The notes: generated from the sequence alone by a model not told the origin. Numbered from the stretch's first letter, positions 9,570-23,223 are shown. The stretch: 64,000 bases of DNA from a bacterium (GCA_003576755.1 QEVT01000001.1:641-64640), one strand, 5' to 3'. Numbers and translations are program-made.

Positions 9570-10934
9570 TCAGTCGGGCTCCCCGCCCTCGGCCGCCACA
9601 TGGTGGTAGACCTCGTAGACGCTGGCGTTCTGGAAACGATAGCCCTGCCCGCGCAGGCTCTCGATGTGCTGGAACGACGAGCTCGGCGCATCGACCTCCT
9701 TGCGCAGCCGGCTGATCGTCTTCTGGATCATGGCGTCGGTCACCCCGAGGGTGTCGAGCGCGTACTCCGGCCAGACGGCAGCGGCGATGTCGTCCTTGCT
9801 GACGACCTCGCCCGACTTCGTGAGCAGGAAGCGCAGGAGCGCGAACTCCTTCGGAGGCAGCTCGACGGCCTGGCGCTCGATGCGCACGGCGCCGGTGTCG
9901 GGGTTGAGCTCGATGCGCGGGATCTGGCGGCGTACGTAGTCCGCGAACGCGCTCGAGAAGACGCGCCCGGCGACGAGGTAGCCGCGCCGCTCGAGCACGG
10001 GCCGCGCCTGGTTGAACGCCAGGGCGTCGCGCCCTTCCGGCGCGGCGCCCACCGCCAGCCAGGCCAGCGCGTCGCGCTCGGCCACCGGCAGCTTGTGCCA
10101 CGTGTCCTCGAAGTGCGGCGCGTTGCGGACCGCGAAGGCGCGGCCGGCTTCTTCCACCTGGTCCGCGCTGCCGGTCAGCGGCTCGCGCTGTGCGATCTCG
10201 TGGAAGATGGCGGCGGCGACCTGGAGGTAGAACGGGAACCGCCCGGCGAGGTCGTCGATGGCGGCGCGGACCGGCGTGAAGTCCACACCGGCGATCTCGC
10301 CGGTCCGCGCCAGGAAGGCGTTGACCTCTGCGGCGGTGAACGAGCCGATATAGATGTTGCGGAACATGTTGAAGAACGGTGATCCCGTGCCCCACTCTTC
10401 GCGGAACTCTCCGAGCTCCACTCGGGTGGCGACCACGATCGACAGGTCGTACTCGATGATCAGGCCGCGGTACCACTCCCAGAAGCTCGCCTTGAAGTCC
10501 GCCAGCACCTCGAACTCGTCCATCAGCATCACCAGCCGCAGGCCACGCCCGCCGAGGTCCTCGAGGTAGTCCTCGATGCCGAACTGGTCGACGTCGTCCT
10601 CGATGTCGATCTCGGCCTCGGGGTCCGCGCGTTTGATGGCGCGGGCCACGCGGCGGAAGAAGGCGTCCGGTCCCTCGGCGGCCAATTGGGCGTTGACGAA
10701 GGCGAAGACCAGGCGCGCGTCCTCGGCGGCCGGCAGGTGCCGCGCCCGCACGTCGGGGTGCATGAGCTGGTAGAGCAGGCTGGTGTTGCCGCAGCGGTGC
10801 TCACCGACCAGGGCAACCGGCTGCATGTTGGCGATGGACTCGAACAGCTCGCGCAGGGCGTCTCCCCGGCCGTGGAAGTCCGCGGGATCCTTGATCGGTT
10901 TGCCGAGCACGAACGGGTTGCGGCGAGCGGTCAT
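9570..10934 (-). CDS. P-loop (AAA-type) ATPase fused to a C-terminal OmpR/PhoB-type winged-helix DNA-binding domain
   Basis: N-terminal ATPase with Walker-A-like VALVGEHRCGNTSLLY and Walker B VMLMDEFE. C-terminus has a trans_reg_C-like region (ELPPKEFALLRFLLTKSGEVVSKDDI...RLRKEV...GYRF). GAGGAG RBS 8 nt upstream. Confidence 0.8.
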   Translation of the reverse strand: MTARRNPFVLGKPIKDPADFHGRGDALRELFESIANMQPVALVGEHRCGNTSLLYQLMHPDVRARHLPAAEDARLVFAFVNAQLAAEGPDAFFRRVARAIKRADPEAEIDIEDDVDQFGIEDYLEDLGGRGLRLVMLMDEFEVLADFKASFWEWYRGLIIEYDLSIVVATRVELGEFREEWGTGSPFFNMFRNIYIGSFTAAEVNAFLARTGEIAGVDFTPVRAAIDDLAGRFPFYLQVAAAIFHEIAQREPLTGSADQVEEAGRAFAVRNAPHFEDTWHKLPVAERDALAWLAVGAAPEGRDALAFNQARPVLERRGYLVAGRVFSSAFADYVRRQIPRIELNPDTGAVRIERQAVELPPKEFALLRFLLTKSGEVVSKDDIAAAVWPEYALDTLGVTDAMIQKTISRLRKEVDAPSSSFQHIESLRGQGYRFQNASVYEVYHHVAAEGGEPD

Positions 10935-10962
10935 CCGCCTGGCTCCTCGGGTGGCGTGTGGG

Positions 10963-13900
10963 TCAGCTTGGTGCCTGCATCAGCAGGCGCGAGTACTCGT
11001 CGTTCTGTTCCAGCCAGATGCGCACCAGGTCCATGGCGAACCCGTACTGCCGGCCCGCGCTGTCGCCCCCGCGCTCCAGGATGAAGTCGCGGGCCTTCAG
11101 CCCGGGCATGAGCTCCTGAAGGTCCAGAAGCGTCAGCGTCATGTCGTCCTGCCCCAACGTCTCCGACACGTCCTCGAGGCTGACGAACGGGCGGCCGTCG
11201 TCGGTGATCCGCGCCATCGCCGCCAGCGCGAGCTGCTCGTCGCGCGAGAGCGACATGTACCCGTGGCGGATGATGCCCGTGGTCTCCTGGACCGTGGTCT
11301 GGAGCGCCCGGTCGACGTCGCGCAGCGTGACGAAGTTCTTCTGGTCGCGGCGGGCCAGGTTGACGATCTCATGGCAGATGTACTGGATGAAGTACGGCTG
11401 CCCGGCCGTCACGCGCAGGATCTTCTCCACCGCGAGATCATCGTACCACAGCACGTCCGCCACGGGCTCGCGGATCAGCCGCTCGGCCTCGTCGCGCTCG
11501 AGGAAGCTCACCTTGCGCCGCAGCGCCGTGTTGAACAGGATCGACCGCGGGTCCTTGAGCATCGCGGTCACGGCGTGCGCCCCGGCGAAGATGAACGACA
11601 GCCCGTCCTGATGCTGCATCAGCCCGCGGATGCAGTCGAACACGTAGGCGTTGACGTTCCCCTTGTCGACCGCCTCGATCAGGAGGTCGAACTCGTCGGC
11701 GATCAGCACGGCCCGTCGTCCGAGCTGGATCGCCATGTCGCCGATCGTCTCGCCGAGGATCTGGAACTGTTCGATGGGGCGTTCGGTGTACTCCTCGCGC
11801 TCCGGACGCGGCAAGTCGAACCCTGCCCGGCGCAGCCCGTTCACGGCCTTGCGCGCCATCGCGTACAGGAGGTCGGACGTCGACTCCAGTGCGTACGCGA
11901 TCGACTGCAGGTCGATCAGCACGAACGCGTAGAGCTCCGGGAGGTGGTACTGGAGCTGGTAGAGGACGCTGGTCTTGCCGGTGCGCCGCTCGCCGTACAG
12001 CACGAGCACGTTGTCCTGGTAGGTGCCCGACACGTTCTCCTGGATCCAGTTGAAGACCGACTGGCGGCCGTAGAACATCTGCGGGGTCTTGACCGGCGGG
12101 CCGGCGATGTAGGGGCTCGGGCCGATGTCGCGGTACTCGGCCTGCTCGACGAAGAAGCGCACCTCGCGGTTGAAGACCTTGGACTGGTTCTCCTTCTGCG
12201 GGTCGTCGTAGCGCACCTCCACCGTGACCGGCACCACGCCGGCGCCCTGGCGGCGGACGGTGTACTCGGTCGAGATGCGGTCGCCCTGACCGAGCGGTGG
12301 GAGGTAGTGCGTGGGGGGCGACTCGAGCTGCAGCGCGTCGGGCTCGACGTTGAGGGTCAGGCGCACGTTGGAGGCCAGGCCTTCGCGTCGGTTGAGGAGC
12401 TCGAACACCAGCACCGCGGCGGCGTCGACGTCGCGGATCCTGACGTGCTCGGTGCGGATGTCGAGGTCGAGGTCCGCCCGCCCCTGGAGCTCGCGGATGG
12501 CGTGGTTGATGAGCCCGTTCCAGTGCTCGGCCACCGCGTGGAACACCCGTGTGTGCGGCTCGCCCATCTCGCCGATCAGCGTGCGGAGCGTGTTGAGCCG
12601 GTCGGCGGCCGCCAGAAGCCCCTTCTCCTTGGAGCGCCGGGTGGCGCCGCGGTTGTAGTACTGCACGGCCTGCGAGATCATCCGCAGCTGGCGGAACACC
12701 CGGCGGGCGGCGGGGCGCAGCCACTCCTCGACCTCGTCGACCCATTCCAGCCCCGCCTCGGCGGCTCCGATCCCGCCCAACGTGGTGTACTGCAGGAACT
12801 GCCGGGCCGTGACGAAGGTGCGGTGCAGCTCGACGGCCGGCGGCCACCATTCGATGGTCGTCGTCAGATACACCAGCTCGTCGACGTCGAGCGGCTCGAC
12901 CAGCAGCCGGTGGTAGGCGCGTGCGAGGTTGGCCGGCGCGCGGCCGTCGGCGCGCGCCGCCGCGCCGGCCTGTTCGAGCACGCGCAGCGCGCCCTCGAGG
13001 TCGATCTCGGCCGGCCGGGCGTTCAGTCCCACCACCAGCGGCACCACAGCCGGCTCGCCGATGCCCCCCAGGAGCGCGGCGGCCTCGTGTCGGATGTCGC
13101 GGTTGTCGGACGCCAGCGCGTCGATCAACGTCGGGATGGCGTCCGACGGCGCGATTTCGGCGAGGGCGTTGAGGATCGCCAGCGCCGTGTCGTGATCGGT
13201 CTCGACCGCCCACTGGCGGATCAACGCGTTGGCCGCCGTAGGGTCGTCCATCCCGCCGAGCCGCGCCACGGCGTTGCGTCGCACCATCGGGTCGGCGTCG
13301 CCGCTGGCCTGCTCGAGCAGGGCGCGGACGTCGGGGCCGGTCAGCTCGCCGAGGGCGCCGACGGCGCGCCGCCGCACGGCGACGTCTTGCACGCCGAGCA
13401 TGTCGCGGAACACGGCCAGGAGCGGCGCCATCGGCGGCGACGGCAGCGCCATCACCACCTGGGCGAGCTCCCACCGCAGGTTCGGGTCGGGGCTGTGGTC
13501 GAGGGCATCGAGGAGCGCCGCCGTCGCCGCTCCGCCCAGACGCCGGAGGCTGCGGCGGGTCTCCCATCGCACTTCGAAGCGCGCGTCGGCCAGCGCTCGG
13601 ACGAGGAACGGGGCGGCCTGCTCGCCGGCGTCGTCGAACTCGCCGAGCAGCGCGGCGGCCGTGGTGGCCAGCGGGTAGTCCGGCGTGTCGAGGGCGGCGC
13701 CCAGCGCGGCGATGGCATCCGGTCCGATCGACTTGAGGATCGCGACCACCTGGCGCGCGGTGACCGGGCCGGCCGTGGCATGCAGCGCGATCAGCGCCGT
13801 CACCGACGTCCGGCCGATGCGCGCCAACGCGTCGGCGGCCCCGTCGACCTGTTCGGGCGTGCGGTCACCCTGGGGCGGTGCGCCGCCGAGCACCTCGATC

Positions 13901-15693
13901 AGCATCGGCACGGCCTCGGGCCCGATCAGGGCCAGCGCTTCGGCCGCCTCGTGGCGGACCACGTTCGCGCTGGCGTCGAGGAGCGCCACCAGCGGTGCGA
14001 CCGCCTTGGGCCCCTGCCGCGCCAGCGCGTGCATCGCGGCGCGGCGCACGGCCTCGTTCGGCACGTTGAGCTGCCGCACCAGCGGCTGGAGCGTGCGGTC
14101 GCCGAACGTCGCCAACGCGTCGGCGGCCGCGATGCGCACGCCCTCGTCGGCGTCGCCGAGCGCGGTCAACAGCGACGCGATCGCGCTGGGGTCTCCAAGC
14201 CGGGCCAGGGCCTCGGCGGCGGCGCGCTGGACGGCCGGCTGCGGCTCGGCCAGCGCGGCGAGCACCGGCGCCACGATGCCGGTGCGCTTGACGGTCTCGC
14301 TGCCCAGGAGGCCCGCCAAGGGGATGGCGACCTTTCGATCGGTGTCGCGGTCCTTGCGGCCGAGGTAGTCGAGAAGCGCCAGGAGCGCCTGCTCGCGCAG
14401 ATCGGTCGGCACCGGGCGGACCTCGGCCAGCGCCAGCGTGGCCAGGACAGGGTGCCCGGCGGCGAGCAGCGACGCGATGAGCGCGCGCGGATCGCGGCTC
14501 TGCCCGGCCGAGAACACGATGACCGGGTCCCACCATGGGTCCCCGGCATGGCCGACCAGCGTGGGGATGTCGTCGGACATGGCGCGGGCCGCGAAGAGCA
14601 CCTGCACGGCCGGGTGGACGAAGCGGAACGTGTCGCTCGAGAGCCACTGCAGGAGCCCCGAGGACTGTCGCTCGGGCGGCACCAGGCTGGCCGCGCCGAC
14701 CCGGGTCTTGCCCTCGTGCAGCGCGCGCGCGATCGGCGGCCAGATCGCGTCGGGCTCGCCGTCGAGCTGCCGGACGAAGCCGTCGACGATGTCGTGGGTC
14801 CGGATGGGCTCGGACTGGCGGGCGACGCCGGCCAGGGCCGTGGCGAGCCAGCCCGGGCGCGCCACGAGCGAACGCACCAGCGACGAGCGCTCCATCACCT
14901 GCATGAAGCCGCTGGTGTTGGCGACCTGTCCGTATCCCCAGCGGCCGGCAAGGGTCTCCACCCGGCTGGGGTCGACGCCGGCCACCTCGACGACCACGAA
15001 GTCCGAGAGCCAGACGCGGTCGGCGAAGTCGCGCGTGGCCACCACCACGCGGTTGGCGGGGTAGCGCGCCACCAGGTCGGCGATCCGCTCGGCAGCCGCC
15101 TGCCGCTCCGTCGGCGGGAGCGTGTCGAGGTCGTCGAACAGGAGCACGGTGCGGCCACTGGACAGGTGCGTGTCGAGGAAGGCGCCGGCCCCCTCGAAGC
15201 CGGCGCGGCCGAGGATCGCCTCGGCATAGGCCTCGATGGACTGGTGTGCCGGGATCGCGGTCAACGGGACGTAGACCGGGAGCGGCGGCGGGCCGCCCTC
15301 GGCCAGGAGCACGCGCCGGCCGGCTTCGACGACGGCGCGCGCGGACTGGATCGCGTGCCAGCGCAAGAGCGCGCTCTTGCCGGTGCCAGCCGGGCCGATC
15401 AGGAGGACGTGCGCGTTCTCCGCCAGGGCTTCGGCCAGCGTGAGCGGCCGGACCCCCGTGGCGCCGTCGTCGGCGCCCGGCGCGCTCTCCTCGCTCCAGC
15501 GCTGGAGCTCGATCGGCACGTACGAGTCGTCGAGCCGCAGCTCGCCGAGGGCCGGCAGGTGCATGGCGCCGAGCTGCCGATCGATGGTTTCCAGGTAGTT
15601 GACGTACGCGCTCCAGTGGGTGGCGACCTGCCACCAACGGCTGCCCGGTCGACCGAGCCGCCGCGAGACATTGGATGTGAGCTGCGTGGCCAT
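10963..15693 (-). CDS. STAND NTPase: NACHT-like ATPase + HEAT/PBS-lyase repeats + second C-terminal P-loop ATPase module (1576 aa)
   Basis: N-terminal Walker A VLLIGPAGTGKSALL and Walker B VLLFDDLD. Central repeats (LARLGDPSAIASLLTALGDADEGVRIAAADAL...). Second Walker A VLVLYGERRTGKTSVLYQL with Walker B VLIADEFD. Start trimmed to MATQLTS (ATG 15693, AGGAG RBS). Confidence 0.8.
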   Translation of the reverse strand: MATQLTSNVSRRLGRPGSRWWQVATHWSAYVNYLETIDRQLGAMHLPALGELRLDDSYVPIELQRWSEESAPGADDGATGVRPLTLAEALAENAHVLLIGPAGTGKSALLRWHAIQSARAVVEAGRRVLLAEGGPPPLPVYVPLTAIPAHQSIEAYAEAILGRAGFEGAGAFLDTHLSSGRTVLLFDDLDTLPPTERQAAAERIADLVARYPANRVVVATRDFADRVWLSDFVVVEVAGVDPSRVETLAGRWGYGQVANTSGFMQVMERSSLVRSLVARPGWLATALAGVARQSEPIRTHDIVDGFVRQLDGEPDAIWPPIARALHEGKTRVGAASLVPPERQSSGLLQWLSSDTFRFVHPAVQVLFAARAMSDDIPTLVGHAGDPWWDPVIVFSAGQSRDPRALIASLLAAGHPVLATLALAEVRPVPTDLREQALLALLDYLGRKDRDTDRKVAIPLAGLLGSETVKRTGIVAPVLAALAEPQPAVQRAAAEALARLGDPSAIASLLTALGDADEGVRIAAADALATFGDRTLQPLVRQLNVPNEAVRRAAMHALARQGPKAVAPLVALLDASANVVRHEAAEALALIGPEAVPMLIEVLGGAPPQGDRTPEQVDGAADALARIGRTSVTALIALHATAGPVTARQVVAILKSIGPDAIAALGAALDTPDYPLATTAAALLGEFDDAGEQAAPFLVRALADARFEVRWETRRSLRRLGGAATAALLDALDHSPDPNLRWELAQVVMALPSPPMAPLLAVFRDMLGVQDVAVRRRAVGALGELTGPDVRALLEQASGDADPMVRRNAVARLGGMDDPTAANALIRQWAVETDHDTALAILNALAEIAPSDAIPTLIDALASDNRDIRHEAAALLGGIGEPAVVPLVVGLNARPAEIDLEGALRVLEQAGAAARADGRAPANLARAYHRLLVEPLDVDELVYLTTTIEWWPPAVELHRTFVTARQFLQYTTLGGIGAAEAGLEWVDEVEEWLRPAARRVFRQLRMISQAVQYYNRGATRRSKEKGLLAAADRLNTLRTLIGEMGEPHTRVFHAVAEHWNGLINHAIRELQGRADLDLDIRTEHVRIRDVDAAAVLVFELLNRREGLASNVRLTLNVEPDALQLESPPTHYLPPLGQGDRISTEYTVRRQGAGVVPVTVEVRYDDPQKENQSKVFNREVRFFVEQAEYRDIGPSPYIAGPPVKTPQMFYGRQSVFNWIQENVSGTYQDNVLVLYGERRTGKTSVLYQLQYHLPELYAFVLIDLQSIAYALESTSDLLYAMARKAVNGLRRAGFDLPRPEREEYTERPIEQFQILGETIGDMAIQLGRRAVLIADEFDLLIEAVDKGNVNAYVFDCIRGLMQHQDGLSFIFAGAHAVTAMLKDPRSILFNTALRRKVSFLERDEAERLIREPVADVLWYDDLAVEKILRVTAGQPYFIQYICHEIVNLARRDQKNFVTLRDVDRALQTTVQETTGIIRHGYMSLSRDEQLALAAMARITDDGRPFVSLEDVSETLGQDDMTLTLLDLQELMPGLKARDFILERGGDSAGRQYGFAMDLVRIWLEQNDEYSRLLMQAPS

Positions 15694-15971
15694 CGGCGTT
15701 GCTCCTGTGCCAGCCGGCCCGCGGGATTGCCGCCGGGCAGGGTGTCCGCGTGGTCCCAAACAAAACAAACCTGACAAGACGGACATTCGGGCACCCCGCT
15801 TCAGGCGGGCTTGCACGATCGTGGGATGTAATATAACCTAGCCGAGTGCCGGAAGCAATCGCCGTTCGGCACGCCGGCACGCTCTCTGTAGTCAGCGTTC
15901 TGTCAGGGATTGGTAAGGCGGCGGTCAGGGGGCAGTCAAGCGTTGCGCTGGCGCGCGATGCTACCATAGCT

Positions 15972-16218: not shown

Positions 16219-16231
16219 GAGGTGCCGCCCC

Positions 16232-17209
16232 GTGAAAGTTCTTGTCGCAACCAAGGATCTGGCCGTATTTGACGCGCTTCAGGGGCTGACGGGCCTCGAG
16301 TACTCCGAGGCCTTGTTCACCGGCCAGATCTACGAGAGCCTGCCAGGCGCGCGGTTGGTGATCGTCGACTTCGACGATCTCGTCGAGCATCCGTACAGCG
16401 TCAACATGCTGCGCGGCATCCTGTCGGACAGCGACGTGCCGTTCGTGTCGAGCGAGGAGTTTCTCGCCGAGCCCGAGGCGTGGCTCAACGAGGCTCGCCG
16501 GCTGGGCGGCGACACCACGGAGCTGCCGACCAAGCGGACCGTCGCGTTCGTGTCGTACTCGGGCGGCGTGGGCAAGACGGTGCTCGCGATGGACACCGCG
16601 GTGCACTTTGCCCGGCGCGCCAAGCTGCCGGTGGCGCTTCTGGAGTTCACATACGGCGAGTCTGCCGTCGGCGCGCTGGTCGGAGCACAGATCCCGGCCC
16701 TCTTCGAGCTCGCCACCCAGCCCGACGTCGATCCCGTCGTCTGGAACGGTGTCACGCTGGTGCCGATGGACTACGACAACAGCCGAGACCTTTCGATTCA
16801 GCTCCTCGGCAAGTACCTCAAGGACGTCATGCGCGAGCACGTGCTCACCGTCATCGACGCCCACTGGCCGCATGCCTTGATCGGCGCGGTGCGCGACGAG
16901 ATCGACCGATGGTACGTCGTGGCCACGCCGCGGCCGGACGCGGTCGAGAACGCCGAGAAGCTCGCCGCCGAGCTGGGGCCCAAGGCCGCCATCGTGCTCA
17001 ACCAGAAGGGCGGCATGGTGGACTCGCTGGCGCTGTCGGGGGTCGAGCGGGCGGTCGAGCTGCCTACCGTGCGCGAGGCCGACCGCTGGAACGGCGAGCT
17101 CGGCAAGCGCATCTTGCTGCACACCTACGGCCAGGGCACGTGGGGCCAATACGAGCCGAAGAAGATGTTCGCCGACCTTCGCAAGCGGTTCTCGCGGTCC
17201 AAGGACTGA
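16232..17209 (+). CDS. tadZ: Flp pilus assembly ATPase-like protein TadZ/CpaE (receiver-like N-terminus + ParA/MinD-like domain)
   Basis: VAFVSYSGGVGKTVLAMDTA deviant Walker A. GTG start follows the AAGAGGAAGAGG RBS. First gene of the tad operon. Confidence 0.75.
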   Translation: MKVLVATKDLAVFDALQGLTGLEYSEALFTGQIYESLPGARLVIVDFDDLVEHPYSVNMLRGILSDSDVPFVSSEEFLAEPEAWLNEARRLGGDTTELPTKRTVAFVSYSGGVGKTVLAMDTAVHFARRAKLPVALLEFTYGESAVGALVGAQIPALFELATQPDVDPVVWNGVTLVPMDYDNSRDLSIQLLGKYLKDVMREHVLTVIDAHWPHALIGAVRDEIDRWYVVATPRPDAVENAEKLAAELGPKAAIVLNQKGGMVDSLALSGVERAVELPTVREADRWNGELGKRILLHTYGQGTWGQYEPKKMFADLRKRFSRSKD

Positions 17210-17275
17210 GCCTCTCCGGCTCGCCCCTTCCTGCGTGAAGCGCTCGTCTAATCATACATGTGACTGGGAGAGGAC

Positions 17276-18124
17276 ATGAATCCACGATCGCTCGTCCTGT
17301 TGCTGGCCGTGCTCTTGTTCGGGGTCGGCGTGATCTCGCTGATCTCCGGCTTGTTCGCCGAGGCCCCGCCGAGCCGCACCCTGGTGCCGGCCGTGGCCGC
17401 GATGCAAGTCAAGCCCTATACCGTGATCACGCAGGATATGGTGCGGGCCGGCAATCCCGTCCCGGCCGACGAGTTCGTGGAGAAGGGCATGTACCCGTTC
17501 GACAGCGTGGTCGGCCTGATGTCGACGGACCAGCTGCTGCCGGGCGCGACGCTGACCGGCGTCAACGCCAAGCCGGTCGAGGAGGTTCGCTTCGTCGAGG
17601 ACCTCGGCCTGGAAGTGATCTCGTTCACCACCGGCGTCGACCGGGCGGTGGGCGGCCAGCTCAGGCCCGGCCACATCGTCAACCTCTACGGCTTCGGCCG
17701 CGACCGCGAGACCAACGAGCCGTTCACCAGGATCATCGAGCCGCGGCTGTGGGTCGTCAAGGTGGCCGCCGGCAGCTCGGCGATCTCGAACGCGACGCCG
17801 CGTCCGGACCCCGAGACCGGTGAGTACCAGGTCGAGGGCGGCGATCGCGAGGGCCAGGCCACGCTCATCACGGTGGCGGTCCAGCCTCAGCAAGCCTACA
17901 ACATCGTCAACACGCTCGGCGCCGACGGCCTGCAGGCTTGGGTGACGCTGGCCGCCAACCAGACCGCCGACGCGGCGCTGGCCACCCCGGTGGCCACCGC
18001 GGCGCCGCCGCCGACGGCCGGCCTCTCGGCGGAGCTCTCGCTCACCGCGACCGCCTTGTGGAACCTGGTCAACGCCACGCGCCCGGCCAGCGCACCGCGG
18101 ACCGGCTACGGGGGCGTGCGATGA
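17276..18124 (+). CDS. cpaB: Flp pilus assembly protein CpaB/RcpC (SAF domain)
   Basis: N-terminal TM helix followed by a SAF-like domain. Position between tadZ and tadA. Confidence 0.7.
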   Translation: MNPRSLVLLLAVLLFGVGVISLISGLFAEAPPSRTLVPAVAAMQVKPYTVITQDMVRAGNPVPADEFVEKGMYPFDSVVGLMSTDQLLPGATLTGVNAKPVEEVRFVEDLGLEVISFTTGVDRAVGGQLRPGHIVNLYGFGRDRETNEPFTRIIEPRLWVVKVAAGSSAISNATPRPDPETGEYQVEGGDREGQATLITVAVQPQQAYNIVNTLGADGLQAWVTLAANQTADAALATPVATAAPPPTAGLSAELSLTATALWNLVNATRPASAPRTGYGGVR

Positions 18125-19329
18125 GCGCTGTCGCCCGGTACGACTACAACGAGCTCGTCAGACGGGTGCAGGACTACTGCGTCCAGCGCGAGATCCCGGT
18201 TCCGCGCTGGCGGCGCAACGTCAACCAGGAAGAGGAGCTGGCGTTTCACGCCAACGTCCTGCGGGCCATGAAGGACCTCGGCTTCCAGATCGCCGAGGAG
18301 GATCGCCAGGCCGTGGCGCGCGAGGTGGCCAACCGTATCACGGGCCTAGGCGTGCTGCAGCCCTATCTCGAGCAAGAGGGCATCGAGGAGATCATCGTCC
18401 GCAAGGGGTTCGTCCAGGTCGAGCGAAACGGCCAGATCCACGACGTGGGCGACCTGGCGCCGGACGTCTACTTCTACCGCCTGACGCGGCGCATCGCCGA
18501 CCTCGAAGGCAAGGAGATCGGCGCCGAGGACCCGCAGATCAAGCTCGGTCTCCCGGACGGAAGCCGCTTCACGGCGGCCATCCCGCCGCTGTCGCGCGAG
18601 GGCACGGCGATCAACATCCGCCGCTTCAGCCGCAAGAAGCTGACGTTCGAGGATCTCATCTCGTACGGTGCGATCGACGAAGAGGCGGCCGAGTTTCTCA
18701 AGGACGTGTCGCGGGCGATGGCCAAGAGCGTGATCTTCAGCGGCCGCCCGGGTGCCGGCAAGACCACGATCCTCAACGCATTCACGCAGTACCTGCCGCC
18801 GCACTGCCAGCTTTCGCTGGTCGAGACGTTCCAGGAGGTGCAGCCGCAGCTCGGGCACTACAACCACCTGGTGGTGGACGAGGGCCTGGGCGAGGTCGGC
18901 CGCGTCGTCAACGTGGTGTTCCTCCGGATGCGCCCGGACGTCATGATCATCGGCGAGACGGTGTCGGAAGAGGCGATCGAGTTCATCATGGGCCTCAACC
19001 TCGGCATCACCGCGTTCACGACCACCCACGCGCACTCGGCGCGCCTCGCGATGACGCGCATCGAGACGCTGTCCCGCGGGTCCGGAATCCCGCTGGACGA
19101 GCGCCGCGAGATCATCGGCTCGGGATTGGGGCTGGCGGTGCACATCCACAAGGGCTACGACCCCGACTCCCAGACGTATCGCCGCTACATGCGCGAGATG
19201 ATCGCGGTGCACGGGGTCAAGCGCTCGGCGGAGGGTGGCGTGGAGTATGACTACGAGGTGATCAAGGAGTTCGACCCGCGCCGCAAGACATGGACGCCGC
19301 TGCGCGAACCGAAGAACTGGTTGGACTGA
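18121..19329 (+). CDS. tadA: Type II/IV secretion system ATPase TadA/CpaF
   Basis: Walker A FSGRPGAGKTT plus the secretion-ATPase His/Asp boxes. Its ATG overlaps the cpaB stop (ATGA). Confidence 0.9.
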   Translation: MSAVARYDYNELVRRVQDYCVQREIPVPRWRRNVNQEEELAFHANVLRAMKDLGFQIAEEDRQAVAREVANRITGLGVLQPYLEQEGIEEIIVRKGFVQVERNGQIHDVGDLAPDVYFYRLTRRIADLEGKEIGAEDPQIKLGLPDGSRFTAAIPPLSREGTAINIRRFSRKKLTFEDLISYGAIDEEAAEFLKDVSRAMAKSVIFSGRPGAGKTTILNAFTQYLPPHCQLSLVETFQEVQPQLGHYNHLVVDEGLGEVGRVVNVVFLRMRPDVMIIGETVSEEAIEFIMGLNLGITAFTTTHAHSARLAMTRIETLSRGSGIPLDERREIIGSGLGLAVHIHKGYDPDSQTYRRYMREMIAVHGVKRSAEGGVEYDYEVIKEFDPRRKTWTPLREPKNWLD

Positions 19330-19363
19330 TGAGCCCGCGCATTCCGAAAGTCGAGGTGGCGGT

Positions 19364-20251
19364 GTGAGCGGTGGCATGATGATCCTGATCGGCGGCGGAG
19401 GGCTGCTGGCCTACTTGATCTATGACTGGCTGCAGTACCGCATGCGGTCACGTTTGCGCCGTGAGTCCAAGGAAAAGGGCGTGGCCAAGCGGGTGAGCTA
19501 CGACTGGCGGGTCTACTTCATGGTCGGGTTCACCGTGCTGCTCACCTATCTCTTCGCCAGGCCGATCGAACGCGAGATCCCGGTGGCGCGCGGCCTTCCG
19601 CCGGACATCATCATCGGGCGCTGCCTGTTGGTGGCAGGCTACATCCTGCTGATCGGCCTGATCTGGGCCTACCGCCAAGCCGGCAAGGAGGCGGTGTCCG
19701 AGCGCCGCCTGATCAACGAGCAGGTGGCCGAGCTCGTGGCCGCGTTCCGCAGCGTGTTCCGGATTCGCCCGACGGTGTTCAGCGCCCTCGAGGAGTCCAA
19801 CAAGAAGATCGACCCTCCCACCGGCACCGCGGTGGCGCACGCCGTGACCACGTTCTACGTGACGGCGCTGCCCCGCCGGGCGCTCGAGGAGCTGCAGGCG
19901 CGCATCCAGAACGCGTACATGGACCAGTTCATCTACATCCTGGAGCGCGGCGAGGACGCCAAGCACGAGGACATCATGACGGCGCTCGACGGCTTGCTGA
20001 TCCGTCTCCGGCGCGCCCGTGAGCTGCGCGACCAGTCCGAGGTCAACATGACGGTCGTGTCGGGGCAGACGCGGGTCATCCAGGGCATCGCCATCACGAT
20101 GGTGCTGGTGGTCGGCATCTTCGAACGCCTGCGGGTGGCCTACGAGTCGGTGCCGGGCCAGCTCGTCTTCGTGTTCTTCGCGACCATCGGCGTCGTCACG
20201 AGCTGGTACATCGACAGCCAGGCCCAGAAGCTCAAAGAGAAGGTTCTCTGA
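19364..20251 (+). CDS. tadB: Flp pilus assembly membrane protein TadB (T2SS F-like)
   Basis: Polytopic membrane protein immediately after tadA. GAGGTG RBS 6 nt before the GTG start. Confidence 0.75.
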   Translation: MSGGMMILIGGGGLLAYLIYDWLQYRMRSRLRRESKEKGVAKRVSYDWRVYFMVGFTVLLTYLFARPIEREIPVARGLPPDIIIGRCLLVAGYILLIGLIWAYRQAGKEAVSERRLINEQVAELVAAFRSVFRIRPTVFSALEESNKKIDPPTGTAVAHAVTTFYVTALPRRALEELQARIQNAYMDQFIYILERGEDAKHEDIMTALDGLLIRLRRARELRDQSEVNMTVVSGQTRVIQGIAITMVLVVGIFERLRVAYESVPGQLVFVFFATIGVVTSWYIDSQAQKLKEKVL

Positions 20252-20252
20252 C

Positions 20253-20900
20253 ATGCTGCAACAGCTGCTGCTCCTGCTGGCCTTGATGGGAGGGTTCCTC
20301 CTCCTCTTGATCCTCTTCGGGGGCGAGATCTGGACCCGGGTGTGGCGCTTTCAGCGCAAGCGCCGCATGGCGCGGCTCGAGCGCTACCGCCCGCGCAACA
20401 TGTGGCGCCGGTTGCGCAAGAAACCGGTGTACGAGGTCGACCTGACGACCATCCGCGACTTCGTGCTGACGCTGCAGCTCTCGCTTTCGCTGGCCGAGAC
20501 ACTGGCCGGCGCGCTCGTGCAGGCCTCGCGGCAGTTCGGCGAGCGCGGCACCTTCGGCGAGCGCCTGACGGTGCGCGTCCGCAGCCAGTTGCAGGTCGAG
20601 CCCGAAGCCGTCATCCGTGCCCTGGCCGAGGACTTCAGCTCGCCGCACATGCACGAGCTGGCGGATCGCCTGGACCTGGCGCACGAGGGCGGCCTGTCGT
20701 ACAGCGAGGCGGTCAACACCACCCTCGACGACATCGAGGAGGAGATCCGCATCGGGGTCGAGAAGGAGATCGAGCGGGCACCGGTCATGTTGACCATCCC
20801 GATGATCATGGGCGTGTTCTTCGCGGCGCTGGCGCTCCTGGGCTACCCCCTGATCATCCTGATGTTCGACGCCGCGGGCGCCGCTCAAGGCGGGCGCTGA
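20253..20900 (+). CDS. tadC: Flp pilus assembly membrane protein TadC
   Basis: Second T2SS-F-like membrane protein; starts 1 nt after the tadB stop. Confidence 0.75.
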   Translation: MLQQLLLLLALMGGFLLLLILFGGEIWTRVWRFQRKRRMARLERYRPRNMWRRLRKKPVYEVDLTTIRDFVLTLQLSLSLAETLAGALVQASRQFGERGTFGERLTVRVRSQLQVEPEAVIRALAEDFSSPHMHELADRLDLAHEGGLSYSEAVNTTLDDIEEEIRIGVEKEIERAPVMLTIPMIMGVFFAALALLGYPLIILMFDAAGAAQGGR

Positions 20901-21185
20901 GCCCGAGCGGCTCGAGCGCCGGCGCGGACGGCGGACGCCGGGGCGTGGACGATCGGCCGAGCGGCGCGAGTCAACCGAAACCCACCGGAAGGAACCCGGC
21001 CGGGCCAGCGCCCGGCCGGGTTTTCTGTTGCCGAGGCCGGCTCGGTCGTGCGCCAAGGGCAGGGGATCTCACAGGTCTGCCGGCGGTCACCGTGATCCGT
21101 GGCGTGTCGCGTCCGGCGACCGGCCGCGCTAGCTGACGTCTTGCTGACAATTGCCCGCGACAAGCCTGACAACGGCGCCTGGCAC

Positions 21186-21214
21186 TTGCCAAGCTTGCCG
21201 CTTCGTGATAGAAT
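21186..21214 (+). promoter_or_regulatory. Sigma-70-like promoter upstream of flp1 (TTGCCA - 17 nt - TAGAAT)
   Basis: Hexamers and spacer read directly. The element ends 43 nt before the flp1 ATG at 21258. Confidence 0.45.
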
Positions 21215-21257
21215 GGTGGCTAGTTCATCCGTTTTCACTCGAGGAGGTACCTTCCCA

Positions 21258-21518
21258 ATGGTTAATTCCCTGAAGCGCTTCTGGAACGACGAGAGCGGTC
21301 CGGAGCTGGTGGAGTGGGCGGTCGTGACCATCATCCTGTTGGTGGCGGCGATCGTGCTCTACATCGCGGTGGGCAAGCTTCTCGGCAACGTGATCTGCGG
21401 CATTCAGTGCTGGCTGAGCAAGGCCGCGTCGTCCGAGGGCCACAAGGCCGCTGCCGGCACGGGCATGGGCACGTGCGACAAGGCCGAGCGCAACGACGAC
21501 GGCAGCTGCAACTTCTAG
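21258..21518 (+). CDS. flp: Flp-family prepilin (Flp1) with a C-terminal Cys-containing extension
   Basis: GAGGAGG RBS. The Flp-type motif G-PELVEWAVVTIILLV (G/xxxxEY-like cleavage region) is followed by a hydrophobic segment. Confidence 0.7.
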   Translation: MVNSLKRFWNDESGPELVEWAVVTIILLVAAIVLYIAVGKLLGNVICGIQCWLSKAASSEGHKAAAGTGMGTCDKAERNDDGSCNF

Positions 21519-21606
21519 TCTGAATGCGGCGCTTCACGGCGCCGGACAACGCGCCCACGGCGGGTTTCGCTCGCGAGACCGCCAGGCGTCGACACACAGC
21601 AGCAAA

Positions 21607-21638
21607 CCGGGCAGGGCTGGCATCACGGCCCTGCCCGG
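21607..21638 (+). terminator. Hairpin (11-bp stem ccgggcagggc / gccctgcccgg, 10-nt loop) followed by tctgtatct
   Basis: Perfect inverted repeat 89 nt after the flp1 stop. Typical position for a pilin-gene attenuator/terminator. Confidence 0.5.
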
Positions 21639-21830
21639 TCTGTATCTGGCGGACGGAGCACCCTCCGCGGGTCGCTTGAGCCTGCCGGCTGCGGGGACAC
21701 CGGTCTGCGGCGAGAGGCGGCGCTTCGGCGGTCCGGAGCGGCCCGCGACCACCGTGGCATCATTCTTGCTATATCGATCTTGCGGGTGCCGGCGCCGGCC
21801 GGCGCACCACCGATGGGAGGTGACCTAATC

Positions 21831-22061
21831 ATGCGTGCATCATTCGCTTTCAGGCGGTTCTGGGACGACGACCGCGGCGCCGAGATGGTCGAGTGGGCGC
21901 TGGTGACGCTCATCCTGCTCATCGCCACGTCCAGCGTGATCATCGGGCTGCGCGAGATGATCGTCGACGCGCTCAAGTCGATCTTCGCCGCCCTGCAGGA
22001 GGACCCGGCGGACGCGTGGACGACTGGCTCGGTGGCGCCGCCGCCGACCCCGAACCCGTGA
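21831..22061 (+). CDS. flp: Flp-family prepilin (Flp2)
   Basis: GGGAGG RBS. MRASFAFRRFWDDDRGAEMVEWALVTLILLIA is paralogous to Flp1. Confidence 0.65.
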   Translation: MRASFAFRRFWDDDRGAEMVEWALVTLILLIATSSVIIGLREMIVDALKSIFAALQEDPADAWTTGSVAPPPTPNP

Positions 22062-22101
22062 CCCTGGCCGCCCTTCGTCACGGCCACGACAGGCGCGCCC
22101 C

Positions 22102-22626
22102 ATGCCGCAATGGCTGAATCCCGAGGCCACCCTGTGGATCGTCAAGATCGTCATCACGCTGTGGATGGTCGCGGTGTCCGTGCTGGACCATCGCGACGGA
22201 CGCATCCCCAACCGCCTGACGGGGCCGGTCTTTCTGGGTGTGGGGGCGTATCGGATCCTCTGGGAGGGGTTGTGGCAGGGCGAACATGTCCGCCTGTGGT
22301 TGCTGGCGGCATGGGCCGTCGTCTACGGGCTGTGGATGCTGCACTTCATCGGGGGCGGCGACGGCAAGTTCCTGATGGCGCAGCTCGCGCTGTTCCCGAG
22401 CATGGAGTACGTGGCGGTGTTGGCCCTGGTCCTGCTGGTGCTGACGGTGCCGTTGCTGGTGTGGACGATGCGGGGCCGCTCGCCGGGCGCTTTGCTGCGC
22501 GGGGTTTGGGCCCGGCTGCAAACCGGCGAGGTGCTGCCGACGGAAGAAGAGCTCCAAACGCACGGCAAGCGCTACGCGTGGACCTATGCCGTGCCGGGGA
22601 TCGTGTACACGTGGGTGTACTGGTGA
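22102..22626 (+). CDS. tadV: Prepilin peptidase TadV/CpaA (A24 family)
   Basis: Catalytic-Asp-containing segments (DHRDGRIPN, GGGDGKF) and a multi-TM protein. Confidence 0.75.
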   Translation: MPQWLNPEATLWIVKIVITLWMVAVSVLDHRDGRIPNRLTGPVFLGVGAYRILWEGLWQGEHVRLWLLAAWAVVYGLWMLHFIGGGDGKFLMAQLALFPSMEYVAVLALVLLVLTVPLLVWTMRGRSPGALLRGVWARLQTGEVLPTEEELQTHGKRYAWTYAVPGIVYTWVYW

Positions 22627-22686
22627 CGGACCGTGGGCGGGGTCGTGTCCGCATCGGTGTCCGTTGAGCGAACAGGTGGTGTGGAG

Positions 22687-23223
22687 ATGAGGCATCCGAT
22701 GACACGGTTTTCAAGATACCGTGACGGGGTTCGGGCGGTGTGCCGCCGAGCCTGGGGGTCGGCCGCGCGATTCGGCGGCGATCGCCAGGGTGGCACCGCC
22801 GTGCAGGCGATCATGTTCCTGCCGGTCATCGCGGTGGCCATGTTCGGCCTGATCCGCGTGTGGCAGGTGATCCAGGTCCGCGACTCGCTGCACACCGGCA
22901 CGTACCTCGCCACGCGCTACATGTCGCTGTACACGCCGGAGACGTCGGATCCGGTGTTCTGGGAGGACATCGCTTACAAGTTCATCCTCGCCGAGCTCGA
23001 GGCCAACCCGTGGGTGGACAAGATGCGCCTCATCCCGGGCAGCCCGACGATCGGGGTGACGGTCGTGCTGACCGACGGCGGCTACGAGTGCACCAACGAC
23101 TTTACGGTCGAAGCCAAGTACACGATGAACGTCATGGGCGGCGATCCCGGCCAGAACGGCCTGCCCGGGCTGTCCGACATCACGCTCGTCGACCTTCGGA
23201 AGGGTGAGGTCCTGTGCAAATGA
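22687..23223 (+). CDS. tadE: TadE/TadG-like pseudopilin 1
   Basis: TadE-like N-terminus (GGTAVQAIMFLPVIAVAMFGLI). Start trimmed to MRHPMTRF. Confidence 0.6.
   Translation: MRHPMTRFSRYRDGVRAVCRRAWGSAARFGGDRQGGTAVQAIMFLPVIAVAMFGLIRVWQVIQVRDSLHTGTYLATRYMSLYTPETSDPVFWEDIAYKFILAELEANPWVDKMRLIPGSPTIGVTVVLTDGGYECTNDFTVEAKYTMNVMGGDPGQNGLPGLSDITLVDLRKGEVLCK

What the first reader, a model, noticed from the sequence alone, without database searches (positions are those of the whole stretch)
10963..15693. Double-ATPase architecture within a single STAND protein
The protein carries two separate Walker A motifs more than 1100 residues apart. GPAGTGKS is near the N-terminus and GERRTGKTS is near the C-terminus. 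Each is followed by a hhhhDE/DD Walker B. They flank about 15 HEAT/PBS-lyase-like repeats. Most STANDs have one NTPase plus a repeat sensor, so a C-terminal second ATPase after the sensor repeats is unusual. It could act as an effector or as a co-oligomerisation handle.
Basis: seen in the sequence. Interest (0 to 1): 0.55.

Follow-up and report, generated by a model that had tools for sequence, protein, structure and literature searches.

The report
Two-engine STAND sensor beside Tad pilus genes
One real, conserved 1576-residue protein of filamentous Chloroflexota carries two different NLR-type ATP switches, and it is always paired with a related DNA-binding partner next to the Tad pilus genes, so it looks like a new kind of two-protein gene switch rather than a sequencing artefact.

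Summary
Window 10963-15693 (-) is a single 1576-aa gene. It carries GPAGTGKS/VLLFDD at aa 100-188 and GERRTGKTS/VLIADE at aa 1234-1334.

- **Two different modules.** The N-terminal module is a NACHT (the model matches NLRP3 and NOD2). The C-terminal module is an ATPase_2/Orc-Cdc6-like STAND module with a winged helix. About 11-14 HEAT repeats and a helical plus beta-sandwich linker lie between them.
- **Not a frameshift fusion.** The exact protein sits on 18 contigs. Twenty-two other Chloroflexota genomes keep one uninterrupted ORF of 1538-1648 aa.
- **Conservation.** The C-terminal motifs are invariant in all 23 orthologues. The NACHT site has eroded in two.
- **Partner gene.** The next gene (9570-10934) is a paralogue of the C-terminal module fused to an OmpR-type DNA-binding domain. 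Its Walker A lysine is lost (GNTS).
- **Context.** This pair always lies divergent from the tad pilus operon. The intergenic region holds five YTKAC repeats at an exact 11-bp period.

My best reading is an NLR-like sensor whose second NTPase recruits the DNA-binding partner to control transcription. It is a variant of the nSTAND2 two-gene system. The mechanism is inferred, not shown.

The parts
10963..15693 (-). Gene for the 1576-aa double-NTPase protein (NACHT, HEAT, helical and beta-sandwich linker, ATPase_2-like NTPase, wHTH)
   Evidence: ORF and start codon. GC3 is 0.94. The exact product is on 18 contigs. Uninterrupted orthologous ORFs occur in 22 other genomes.
14494..15438 (-). N-terminal NACHT module (NBD, HD1, WHD; aa 86-400)
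   Evidence: Pfam NACHT scores 29.3 bits (cut-off 26.7) and nSTAND1 34.8 bits. The AF2 model has pLDDT 79, and its top 25 PDB matches are all NLR NACHT structures (NLRP3 7alv 1.7e-10, NOD2, NAIP5). The sensor-1 ATR and the WHD His360 are present.
15373..15396 (-). Walker A no. 1, GPAGTGKS (aa 100-107)
   Evidence: It is canonical in 21 of 23 orthologues and eroded in L021 and L022.
15130..15147 (-). Walker B no. 1, VLLFDD (aa 183-188)
12994..14280 (-). HEAT-repeat solenoid (aa 472-900), about 11-14 units of about 31 aa
   Evidence: Pfam HEAT_2 at 5e-48 with six stretches. A self-HMM finds 11 units.
12484..12981 (-). Helical bundle (aa 905-1070), with no Pfam family
   Evidence: AF2 model at pLDDT 88. 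This 'mid' region is detected in 116 of 177 relatives of the C-terminal module.
12148..12471 (-). Eight-stranded beta-sandwich (aa 1075-1182)
   Evidence: DSSP on the AF2 model. The region is conserved with the helical bundle.
10966..12114 (-). C-terminal ATPase_2/nSTAND2-like NTPase with lid and winged helix (aa 1194-1576), starting with the SPYIAGPPV...FYGR motif
   Evidence: Pfam AAA_22 at 7e-12 and ATPase_2 at 1.4e-7. Foldseek matches 2qby_A at 4.9e-11, 2qen at TMt 0.71 and 2fna at TMt 0.63. The family has 7692 representatives.
11968..11994 (-). Walker A no. 2, GERRTGKTS (aa 1234-1242)
   Evidence: G[EQ]RRxGKTS is present in 23 of 23 orthologues.
11692..11709 (-). Walker B no. 2, VLIADE (aa 1329-1334)
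   Evidence: D1333 and E1334 are invariant.
9570..10934 (-). Partner gene, 454 aa, starting 28 nt downstream: nSTAND2 NTPase plus an OmpR-type winged helix
   Evidence: Pfam nSTAND2 at 3.4e-15 (56.5 bits, cut-off 24) and Trans_reg_C at 1.7e-16. It lies directly downstream (-7 to +132 nt) in all 26 loci with downstream DNA. hhalign against the C-terminal module gives 99.9% probability and E 8e-33.
10779..10805 (-). Eroded Walker A of the partner, GEHRCGNTS (aa 44-52, Lys replaced by Asn)
   Evidence: It is identical in all 11 genomes of the near clade, canonical GKTS in the distant clade, and APPRMG[AT]TS in L021-L023.
9633..9872 (-). OmpR/PhoB-type winged-helix DNA-binding domain of the partner (aa 355-434)
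   Evidence: Pfam Trans_reg_C and NCBIfam PhoB-like hits.
15891..15939 (-). Five direct repeats at an exact 11-bp period (TTGAC, CTGAC, CTTAC, CTGAC, CTGAC); candidate operator
   Evidence: There is one match in 64 kb against 0 expected, and even a 3-unit pattern occurs nowhere else. The pentamers are conserved while the spacers vary in 8 near-clade orthologous intergenic regions (L004-L014; L013 with one mismatch). TGAC arrays also occur in the distant clade.
15830..15858 (-). Putative promoter of the STAND operon: TTGCTT, 17 nt, TATATT. This was read by eye and was not found by the consensus scan.
   Evidence: Sequence. ATTGC and TATAnT are conserved in the alignment. The scan was negative.
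15962..15967 (+). Putative -10 (TACCAT) of the divergent tad promoter. The nearest repeat (15935-15939) falls at about -35.
   Evidence: A conserved ATGGTAGC/ATACTAC block sits at a fixed distance (within 1 nt) from GCTTGAC. This is an inference.
16232..23942 (+). Divergent tad/flp pilus operon (cpaE-like, cpaB, cpaF, tadB, tadC, small ORFs, prepilin peptidase, tadE-like)
   Evidence: Pfam finds RcpC, T2SSE, T2SSF, Peptidase_A24 and TadE. The same divergent arrangement occurs in every full-architecture locus with upstream DNA.

Best explanation
**What is there.** The gene encodes one polypeptide with two NTPase switches from different STAND clades.
- An N-terminal NACHT module and its HEAT solenoid form an NLR-like sensor.
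- A helical and beta-sandwich linker leads to a C-terminal ATPase_2/nSTAND2-like module.
- That C-terminal module is the constant, catalytically intact engine.

**The operon.** This gene is the first of a two-gene operon. The second gene encodes a paralogous nSTAND2 module that has lost its Walker A lysine in this clade. It is fused to an OmpR-type winged helix.

**Proposed mechanism (inferred).**
1. A ligand bound by the HEAT array releases the NACHT switch, and the large protein oligomerises.
2. The clustered C-terminal modules form AAA+-type interfaces with the partner's module. This is the hetero-multimer predicted for nSTAND2 gene pairs.
3. Four or five winged helices are thereby lined up head-to-tail on the five 11-bp-spaced TGAC-type repeats that lie between the STAND operon and the tad pilus operon.
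4. Transcription of tad, of the STAND operon itself, or of both is switched.
5. ATP hydrolysis by the C-terminal site resets the complex.

**Shown:** the domains, their conservation, the gene pairing, the synteny and the repeat array.

**Inferred:** the ligand, the hetero-oligomer, DNA binding, and the sign and target of regulation.
For: **One gene.**
- The exact product is on 18 contigs.
- Each orthologue gives a single-frame tblastn HSP and an uninterrupted ORF.

**Two folds.**
- The N-terminal model matches NLR NACHT structures.
- The C-terminal model matches Orc1/Cdc6 and ATPase_2 proteins.

**The C-terminal site is the core.**
- Its Walker A and B are invariant in 23 of 23 orthologues.
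- The NACHT site is eroded in L021 and L022, and the partner site in two lineages.

**Paralogy with the partner.**
- hhalign gives 99.9% probability and E 8e-33 over 311 columns.
- tblastn gives 29% identity and E 4e-10.

**Pairing is general.**
- The partner lies directly downstream in all 26 loci that have downstream DNA, often overlapping by 4-8 nt.
- P0123 (NB-ARC+TPR+module) and P0022 (TIR+nSTAND1+module) are each followed by an nSTAND2 gene.
- P0066 and P0133 are fused tandem versions.

**Output domain.** The partner carries Trans_reg_C at 1.7e-16.

**Link to tad.**
- cpaE, cpaB, cpaF, tadB and tadC lie divergent in every full-architecture locus with upstream DNA.
- This includes loci where the STAND protein is only about 30% identical.
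- The other flank (the P-type ATPase) is conserved only in the 94% relative.

**Operator.**
- Five repeats at an 11-bp period are unique in the window, with 0 expected by chance.
- The pentamers are conserved while the spacers vary.
- In 943 kb of fetched loci, 13 of 15 such arrays lie in this intergenic region. The other 2 lie just after the partner gene.

**Literature.**
- nSTAND2 was defined as a two-gene operon with one eroded NTPase carrying the output domain. It was predicted to form a toroidal hetero-multimer (PMC8195603).
- From my own knowledge, OmpR/PhoB/SARP proteins bind direct repeats spaced one helical turn apart.
Against: - No experiment or complex model supports the hetero-oligomer, and I could not predict a complex.
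- The C-terminal module itself does not reach Pfam nSTAND2 at E < 0.01. It scores best as AAA_22/ATPase_2, and ATPase_2 is 1.2 bits below its cut-off.
- The array was found in only 6 of about 12 distant-clade intergenic regions.
- In the distant clade the array sits closer to the STAND gene than to tad. The regulated promoter may therefore be the STAND operon alone.
- The consensus promoter scan found nothing in the region. My promoter calls are by eye.
- Synteny within one class of bacteria can be inherited without any functional coupling.
- The ligand of the HEAT array is unknown.
Confidence: 0.5

Rival explanations
1. This is a counter-invader (anti-phage) system of the nSTAND2 two-gene type. 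The NACHT-HEAT part senses a phage protein as Avs and bNACHT proteins do, and the winged-helix partner launches a defensive transcriptional response. That response could be shutting off the Tad pilus as a phage receptor. Adjacency to tad would then be secondary.
For: The nearest outside relatives of the N-terminal module are NACHT+FGS and SIR2+NACHT proteins, which are typical conflict architectures. nSTAND2 pairs were predicted to be counter-invader systems (PMC8195603). Relatives of the C-terminal module carry TIR domains (P0022). Kibby et al. list wHTH domains as adaptor-type effectors of bacterial NACHT proteins. The host lineage is filamentous and multicellular, where such systems are enriched (PMC7159879 abstract).
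Against: Neither protein has a toxic effector domain. PADLOC gives only repeat-level or P-loop-level hits. The neighbourhood is housekeeping (ClpB, E1 dehydrogenase, histidine kinase, P-type ATPase) and not a defence island. The pair has a fixed position beside tad across relatives from 94% down to about 30% identity, which is vertical inheritance rather than mobility.
Confidence: 0.2
2. The two NTPases do not talk to the partner through NTPase-NTPase contacts. The partner oligomerises on DNA by itself. The large protein is an independent regulator or scaffold whose two modules act in cis, for example the C-terminal module homo-oligomerises and the NACHT gates it.
For: The C-terminal module has its own winged helix. 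About 1090-aa relatives with the same module lack any partner gene (L033-L083), so the module can work alone. In the distant clade the partner keeps a canonical Walker A and could be autonomous.
Against: The gene pair is strictly adjacent and often overlaps wherever the NACHT-HEAT, NB-ARC-TPR or TIR-nSTAND1 versions occur. Fused tandem versions exist (P0066, P0133). The partner's catalytic lysine has been lost repeatedly while Arg156 stays invariant. That pattern fits a subunit that contributes to a neighbour's active site.
Confidence: 0.15
3. The large protein is a structural or assembly factor of the Tad machinery, such as a cytoplasmic HEAT scaffold or localisation factor, and not a transcriptional sensor. 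The partner is an ordinary regulator that happens to be co-transcribed.
For: The protein is invariably linked to the tad operon. HEAT solenoids are common protein-protein scaffolds.
Against: The NACHT and ATPase_2-like switch modules, the paralogy with the DNA-binding partner and the conserved operator are hallmarks of signalling, not of pilus assembly. From my own knowledge, no such component is known in characterised Tad systems.
Confidence: 0.1
4. This is an artefact: two genes joined by a sequencing frameshift or assembly error.
For: One related contig (L001) shows the orthologue split into three frames.
Against: The identical 1576-aa product is called on 18 contigs from different assemblies. 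Twenty-two other genomes have an uninterrupted ORF of 1538-1648 aa, collinear over the full length, with no N runs. GC3 is uniform at 0.94. L001 also fragments the downstream gene, which points to indel errors in that contig.
Confidence: 0.01

Closest known systems
nSTAND2 two-gene operon (Kaur, Iyer, Burroughs and Aravind, eLife 2021, PMC8195603, Fig. 6C)
   Same: There are two adjacent genes whose constant cores are related STAND NTPase modules. One module has eroded NTP-binding motifs and carries the output domain, and the arginine is retained. A hetero-multimer is predicted. The partner here passes the Pfam nSTAND2 threshold.
   Different: The output domain is an OmpR-type winged helix instead of GT4 or HEPN. 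The active subunit carries a complete NACHT-HEAT sensor in front, which gives three NTPase sites in the system. It scores as AAA_22/ATPase_2 and not as nSTAND2. The locus is not mobile and is fixed next to the tad operon.
STAND transcription factors: AfsR/SARP-LAL (OmpR wHTH, BTAD, NB-ARC, TPR) and MalT
   Same: An NLR-type NTPase switch and a repeat sensor control an OmpR-type (AfsR) DNA-binding domain that recognises direct repeats near the -35. Activity depends on oligomerisation. AfsR is described as an NLR-type regulator in bioRxiv 10.64898/2026.09.02.748808.
   Different: In those proteins everything is in one polypeptide with a single NTPase. Here the DNA-binding domain is on a separate paralogous STAND protein and the sensor protein has two NTPases.
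Bacterial NACHT proteins and Avs antiviral STANDs (Kibby et al., bioRxiv 10.1101/2022.07.19.500537; PMC13581612)
   Same: The N-terminal module has the NACHT fold and motifs, with a C-terminal HEAT 'antigen-receptor-type' repeat array. The closest outside relatives are NACHT+FGS and SIR2+NACHT.
   Different: There is no N-terminal effector domain, a second NTPase follows the sensor, and there is no defence-island context. No phage phenotype has been tested.
Plant NLRs with tandem NB-ARC domains (rice Pib, wheat WTN1; papers listed)
   Same: They are a precedent for two nucleotide-binding modules in one STAND/NLR polypeptide.
   Different: Those are adjacent duplicates of the same clade in eukaryotes. 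Here the two modules belong to different clades, are separated by about 1000 residues, and the second has its own partner gene.
Archaeal ATPase_2 proteins PAB2304 (2qen) and SSO1545 (2fna), and Orc1/Cdc6 (2qby)
   Same: They are the best structural matches to the C-terminal module: a P-loop core, a helical lid and a winged helix (TM 0.63-0.71 normalised to the target).
   Different: Sequence identity is only 14-16%. Those are stand-alone proteins of about 350 aa with no repeat sensor or partner subunit.
PhoB/OmpR/SARP operators (own knowledge)
   Same: They are short direct repeats spaced one helical turn (11 bp) apart, with the promoter-proximal unit at the -35 position.
   Different: There are five units instead of the usual two to four, the core is TGAC, and binding has not been tested.

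Membership tests
NACHT clade of STAND NTPases (N-terminal module) | Pfam NACHT model above its gathering score | tested here: met
   PF05729 scores 29.3 bits against a cut-off of 26.7. nSTAND1 scores 34.8 against 27.1.
NACHT clade of STAND NTPases (N-terminal module) | NBD-HD1-WHD fold like the NLRs | tested here: met
   The AF2 model has pLDDT 79. Its top 25 PDB matches are all NLRs (NLRP3 at 1.7e-10, NOD2, NAIP5).
NACHT clade of STAND NTPases (N-terminal module) | Walker A GxxxxGK[ST], Walker B with the D[GAS]hDE signature, sensor-1 Arg and WHD His | tested here: inconclusive
   Walker A, sensor-1 (ATR) and His360 are present. The signature reads DDLDT in the window. It is DGLD in several orthologues and DGLDE in P0038 (signature as stated by Kibby et al.).
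ATPase_2 (PF01637) / MNS-type STAND (C-terminal module) | Pfam model above its gathering score | tested here: inconclusive
   ATPase_2 scores 32.0 bits against a cut-off of 33.2. AAA_22 scores 46.2 against 27. Of 24 relatives, 23 hit ATPase_2 at E < 0.01.
ATPase_2 (PF01637) / MNS-type STAND (C-terminal module) | P-loop core, lid and winged helix, as in solved members | tested here: met
   The model has pLDDT 88. Matches are 2qen at TMt 0.71, 2fna at 0.63 and 2qby_A at E 4.9e-11.
nSTAND2 two-gene system (PMC8195603) | Two adjacent genes, each with an nSTAND2-type NTPase module | tested here: inconclusive
   The partner passes nSTAND2 (56.5 bits against a cut-off of 24). The C-terminal module of the large protein gives no PF20702 hit at E < 0.01. 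It is nevertheless homologous to the partner over 311 columns (hhalign 99.9%).
nSTAND2 two-gene system (PMC8195603) | One of the two NTPases has eroded nucleotide-binding motifs but keeps the arginine | tested here: met
   The partner reads GEHRCGNTS in the window clade and APPRMG[AT]TS with DNFE in L021-L023. R156 is invariant. In the distant clade both sites are canonical.
nSTAND2 two-gene system (PMC8195603) | The eroded subunit carries a variable effector (GT4 or HEPN) | tested here: not met
   It carries an OmpR-type winged helix instead.
nSTAND2 two-gene system (PMC8195603) | Mobile operon | tested here: not met
   The position next to tad is fixed in all loci, and the context is housekeeping.
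nSTAND2 two-gene system (PMC8195603) | Toroidal hetero-multimer of the two proteins | not testable with these tools
Avs / antiviral STAND defence systems | Match to a known defence-system model, a cell-killing effector domain, and a defence-island context | tested here: not met
   PADLOC gives only HEAT-ARM repeat hits and P-loop-tip hits. There is no effector domain. The neighbours are housekeeping genes.
Avs / antiviral STAND defence systems | Protection against phage, or activation by a phage protein | not testable with these tools
   This requires an experiment.
OmpR/PhoB-family DNA-binding output (partner protein) | Trans_reg_C winged helix above threshold | tested here: met
   PF00486 scores 60.4 bits against a cut-off of 26.2.
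OmpR/PhoB-family DNA-binding output (partner protein) | Binds direct repeats spaced about one helical turn apart | not testable with these tools
   A conserved five-unit array at an 11-bp period exists in the adjacent intergenic region. Binding has not been tested.

The most novel reading that the evidence does not exclude
The ATPase_2/nSTAND2-like module is a general 'second-stage' switch that classical STAND sensors plug into, forming a STAND-to-STAND relay. Complete sensors of three different clades (NACHT-HEAT, NB-ARC-TPR, TIR-nSTAND1) have been fused in front of it independently. In each case it hands the signal to a paralogous partner subunit encoded by the next gene. In Anaerolineae this three-NTPase relay has been domesticated as the dedicated transcriptional switch of the Tad adhesion pilus. 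That would be the first NLR-like regulator of a pilus, and the first STAND in which a second NOD acts as the output adaptor.
Probability: 0.3. Interest if true: 0.75.

Novelty: new variant of a known kind. Interest (0 to 1): 0.6.

Why it matters
NLR/STAND proteins are normally described as effector, one NOD and a sensor. This family instead has a full NACHT sensor followed by a second NOD of a different clade, and that second NOD has its own paralogous partner subunit. The family is conserved in at least 23 species-level genomes. It implies that STAND oligomerisation can be relayed from one NTPase ring to another.

The pattern of motif erosion gives a natural experiment on which sites must hydrolyse ATP. 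The C-terminal site is always intact, while the NACHT and partner sites are lost in different lineages.

The family also gives a concrete, testable candidate for the unknown regulation of Tad pili in filamentous Chloroflexota, which are important for floc and granule formation in wastewater systems. The candidate comes with a defined operator sequence.

The limits are clear. All the hosts found here are uncultured MAGs, and the mechanism rests on comparative genomics only.

Tried and rejected
- **Frameshift or gene-fusion artefact: rejected**. The split orthologue in L001 is best explained by indel errors in that contig, because the downstream gene is fragmented there too.
- **Sequence search of both modules against PDB chains:** no hits at E <= 1. 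Fold comparison was needed instead.
- **Word-indexed homologue search with the N-terminal 470 aa:** nothing found. The same search with a 7-sequence profile gave only two NACHT proteins. That tool also never returned the window's own protein.
- **PADLOC:** no defence-system assignment.
- **NCBIfam:** only sub-threshold HEAT hits (NblB, CpcE) and OmpR-family hits.
- **Rfam on the intergenic region** (testing for, say, a c-di-GMP riboswitch upstream of tad): no match at E <= 1.
- **Consensus sigma-70 and terminator scan of 15600-16300:** nothing found.
- **Literature search for double-NACHT or double-STAND proteins.** The first attempt was swamped by 'two stand...'. The second found only plant tandem NB-ARC NLRs. 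No paper linking a STAND protein to tad in Chloroflexota was found.
- **The long antisense ORF 10783..15774 (+, 1663 aa):** it fails the GC3 coding test and is a high-GC artefact.
- **The idea that the NACHT is the primary engine:** rejected because it erodes in some orthologues while the C-terminal site never does.
Full report
**1. The observation**

The minus-strand ORF 10963..15816 has an ATG at 15693 that gives a 1576-aa protein.
- G....GK[ST] occurs exactly twice: GPAGTGKS at aa 100-107 and GERRTGKT-S at aa 1234-1242.
- hhhhD[DE] also occurs exactly twice, each at the expected distance after a Walker A: VLLFDD at 183-188 and VLIADE at 1329-1334.
- Pfam finds NACHT/nSTAND1/AAA_16 at aa 86-252, six HEAT_2 stretches between about 470 and 900, and AAA_22/ATPase_2 at 1207-1437.
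- A repeat HMM built from the protein itself detects 11 HEAT units. The length of the region allows about 14.

One addition is needed: a helical bundle and a beta-sandwich (aa 905-1182) separate the repeats from the second NTPase.

**2. One gene, not two**

- The exact 1576-aa product is called on 18 contigs from different assemblies, including NCBI GCA_021463285.1 and a Logan assembly.
- A scan of one genome per species returned only Chloroflexota: Anaerolineae/Anaerolineales, Ardenticatenales, Caldilineae and Thermoflexales.
- In 17 of these genomes the whole protein aligns in a single frame from within the first 100 residues to the end. In 22 the corresponding ORF is uninterrupted at 1538-1648 aa. 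Identity ranges from 94% down to 29%.
- GC3 is 0.94.
- One contig (L001) shows the orthologue in three frames. The downstream gene is fragmented there too, so I attribute this to indel errors in that contig.

**3. What the two modules are**

*N-terminal module.* An AlphaFold model of aa 1-470 (pLDDT 79) has NLR NACHT structures as its top 25 PDB matches, including NLRP3, NOD2 and NAIP5. The sensor-1 arginine and the winged-helix histidine are present. A profile search found only NACHT+FGS and SIR2+NACHT proteins as outside relatives.

*C-terminal module.* A model of aa 905-1576 (pLDDT 88) shows a helical bundle, an eight-stranded beta-sandwich, then a P-loop core, a lid and a winged helix. Its best matches are Orc1/Cdc6 and the archaeal ATPase_2 proteins PAB2304 (TM 0.71) and SSO1545 (TM 0.63).

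The two NTPases therefore belong to different STAND clades.

**4. Which one is the core**

The C-terminal module belongs to a large family. It has 7692 cluster representatives at E < 1e-3, and 923 at E < 1e-30.
- In most of the best 150 hits the module sits at the extreme C-terminus of proteins of 800-2700 aa.
- The N-terminal regions of these proteins vary: HEAT, WD40/Reg_prop propellers, TPR, multi-TM segments and MshEN.
- The helical and beta-sandwich 'mid' region accompanies the module in 116 of 177 sequences.

Among 23 full-architecture orthologues the pattern of conservation is uneven.
- The C-terminal Walker A (G[EQ]RRxGKTS) and Walker B (hhhhDE) are invariant.
- The NACHT Walker A and B are destroyed in L021 and L022, and degenerate in P0034, P0036 and P0040.

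The C-terminal NTPase is therefore the constant engine, and the NACHT is the more dispensable addition.

**5. The partner gene**

A 454-aa gene (9570-10934) starts 28 nt downstream. It combines nSTAND2 (56.5 bits) with an OmpR-type Trans_reg_C domain.
- A profile of C-terminal modules aligns with a profile of partner orthologues at 99.9% probability and E 8e-33 over 311 columns. The alignment covers the NPY..G.P/FxGR lead-in, the NTPase and the winged helix.
- The partner lies directly downstream (-7 to +132 nt) in all 26 loci that have downstream DNA.
- In the window clade its Walker A reads GEHRCGNTS, with Lys replaced by Asn. This is identical in the 11 genomes of that clade.
- In L021-L023 it reads APPRMG[AT]TS with DNFE. 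In the remaining distant clade it is canonical. Arg156 is invariant.

This matches the nSTAND2 two-gene operon of Kaur et al. (PMC8195603). There, both proteins have the NTPase core, one is eroded and carries the output domain, and a toroidal hetero-multimer is predicted. Here the output is a DNA-binding domain instead of GT4 or HEPN.

**6. The double-STAND theme recurs**

- P0123 is NB-ARC + TPR + the same C-terminal module.
- P0022 is TIR + nSTAND1 + the module.
- Each is followed by a 428-aa nSTAND2 gene.
- P0066 and P0133 are single-chain tandems of the two module types.
- About 1090-aa relatives lack the partner. Their closest protein homologues (P0015, P0016) begin with a multi-TM region.

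Complete STAND sensors of three different clades have therefore been placed in front of this module independently.

**7. Genomic context and a cis element**

The tad/flp operon lies upstream and divergent. It comprises a cpaE-like gene, cpaB, cpaF, tadB, tadC, a prepilin peptidase and a tadE-like gene.
- The same arrangement holds in every full-architecture locus with upstream DNA. This includes loci where the STAND protein is about 30% identical and CpaF is 54-65% identical.
- The other flank is conserved only in the 94% relative.
- The rest of the window is housekeeping.

The 538-bp intergenic region holds five direct repeats at an exact 11-bp period, at 15891-15939 on the minus strand: TTGAC, CTGAC, CTTAC, CTGAC, CTGAC.
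- The array is unique in the 64-kb window, with 0 expected by chance. Even three units occur nowhere else.
- In 8 near-clade intergenic regions the pentamers are kept while the spacers vary.
- TGAC arrays with the same period and orientation occur in 6 distant-clade regions.
- Across 943 kb of fetched loci, 13 of 15 such arrays lie in this intergenic region. The other two lie just after the partner gene.

By eye I see two candidate promoters.
- TTGCTT-17-TATATT (15858-15830, minus strand) would serve the STAND operon.
- A conserved TACCAT (15962-15967, plus strand) would put the nearest repeat at about -35 of a tad promoter.
- The consensus scan did not call either, so these are leads only.
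- No Rfam family matches the region.

**8. Mechanism and rivals**

*Best-supported reading (confidence about 0.5).*
- It is an NLR-like sensor whose second NTPase recruits the paralogous DNA-binding subunit.
- The complex would bind the 11-bp repeat array.
- It would then switch transcription of tad, of its own operon, or of both.

*Shown:* the architecture, folds, conservation pattern, pairing, synteny and repeat array.

*Inferred:* the ligand, the hetero-oligomer, DNA binding, and the target and sign of regulation.

*Rivals:*
- A counter-invader system with a transcriptional output (about 0.2).
- Independent action of the two proteins (about 0.15).
- A structural Tad factor (about 0.1).
- An artefact (about 0.01).

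**9. Comparison, novelty and score**

The system works like AfsR or MalT, in that a STAND switch drives a DNA-binding domain. It also works like the nSTAND2 pair, in that two paralogous NTPase subunits are present and one is eroded. It is not a clean member of either.
- It fails the 'mobile' and 'GT4/HEPN effector' features of the nSTAND2 system.
- The large protein's C-terminal module does not reach the Pfam nSTAND2 model.

Tandem NB-ARC plant NLRs are the only double-NBD precedent I found. I found no description of a NACHT...ATPase_2 double STAND or of a STAND regulator beside tad. The supplementary tables of the Aravind-group papers were not checked.

My verdict is a real feature and a new variant of a known kind, with interest 0.6.

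Noticed in passing
L001:8976-15076 (ENA ERZ25039586 contig_57544): The orthologous STAND gene is split over three reading frames, and the downstream partner gene is also fragmented into small calls. This is probably indel errors in that assembly and not a pseudogene.
   Followed up: partly
L007:12099-15459, L008, L010, L013, L014; L001:17154-20202: Several relatives carry a second, paralogous pair 1.4-2.7 kb downstream: an ATPase_2-like NTPase gene (fused to TPR in L001) followed by a weaker match to the partner gene (partial in L013 and L001). The window lacks this second pair. In L006 (about 5559) and L014 (about 12124) a TGAC x4 array at an 11-bp period lies just after the first partner gene.
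   Followed up: partly
L033-L083; P0015, P0016: A very widespread Chloroflexota family of about 1090 aa carries the same helical and beta-sandwich 'mid' region plus the C-terminal NTPase, and has no partner gene downstream. Its closest protein homologues (P0015, P0016) begin with a long multi-TM hydrophobic region. Function is unknown.
   Followed up: partly
P0066, P0133, P0136, P0153, P0159: These single polypeptides contain two tandem ATPase_2/nSTAND2-type modules (P0066 has TPR between them). They look like fused versions of the two-gene system.
   Followed up: partly
window 10783-15774 (+): A 1663-aa ORF lies antisense to the STAND gene. It fails the GC3 coding test and is a by-product of 72% G+C, not a gene.
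   Followed up: yes
window 4105-4827 (+) and 57807-59570 (+): Other signalling genes are present in the window: a cNMP-binding-domain protein and a HAMP-HisKA-HATPase histidine kinase. No link to the STAND pair was examined.
   Followed up: no
window 47183-51049 (-): A 1288-aa protein combines a fervidolysin-type prodomain, a subtilase S8 domain and two CAP (cysteine-rich secretory protein) domains. This is an unusual combination.
   Followed up: no
window 15968-16231: If the tad -10 is at 15962-15967, the tad operon would have a 5' leader of about 255 nt. The leader is poorly conserved among relatives and has no Rfam match.
   Followed up: partly
tool behaviour (versus 12): The word-indexed homologue search never returned the window's own protein or its 94% relative, although the exact sequence is in the collection. 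N-terminal searches therefore looked emptier than they really are.
   Followed up: no
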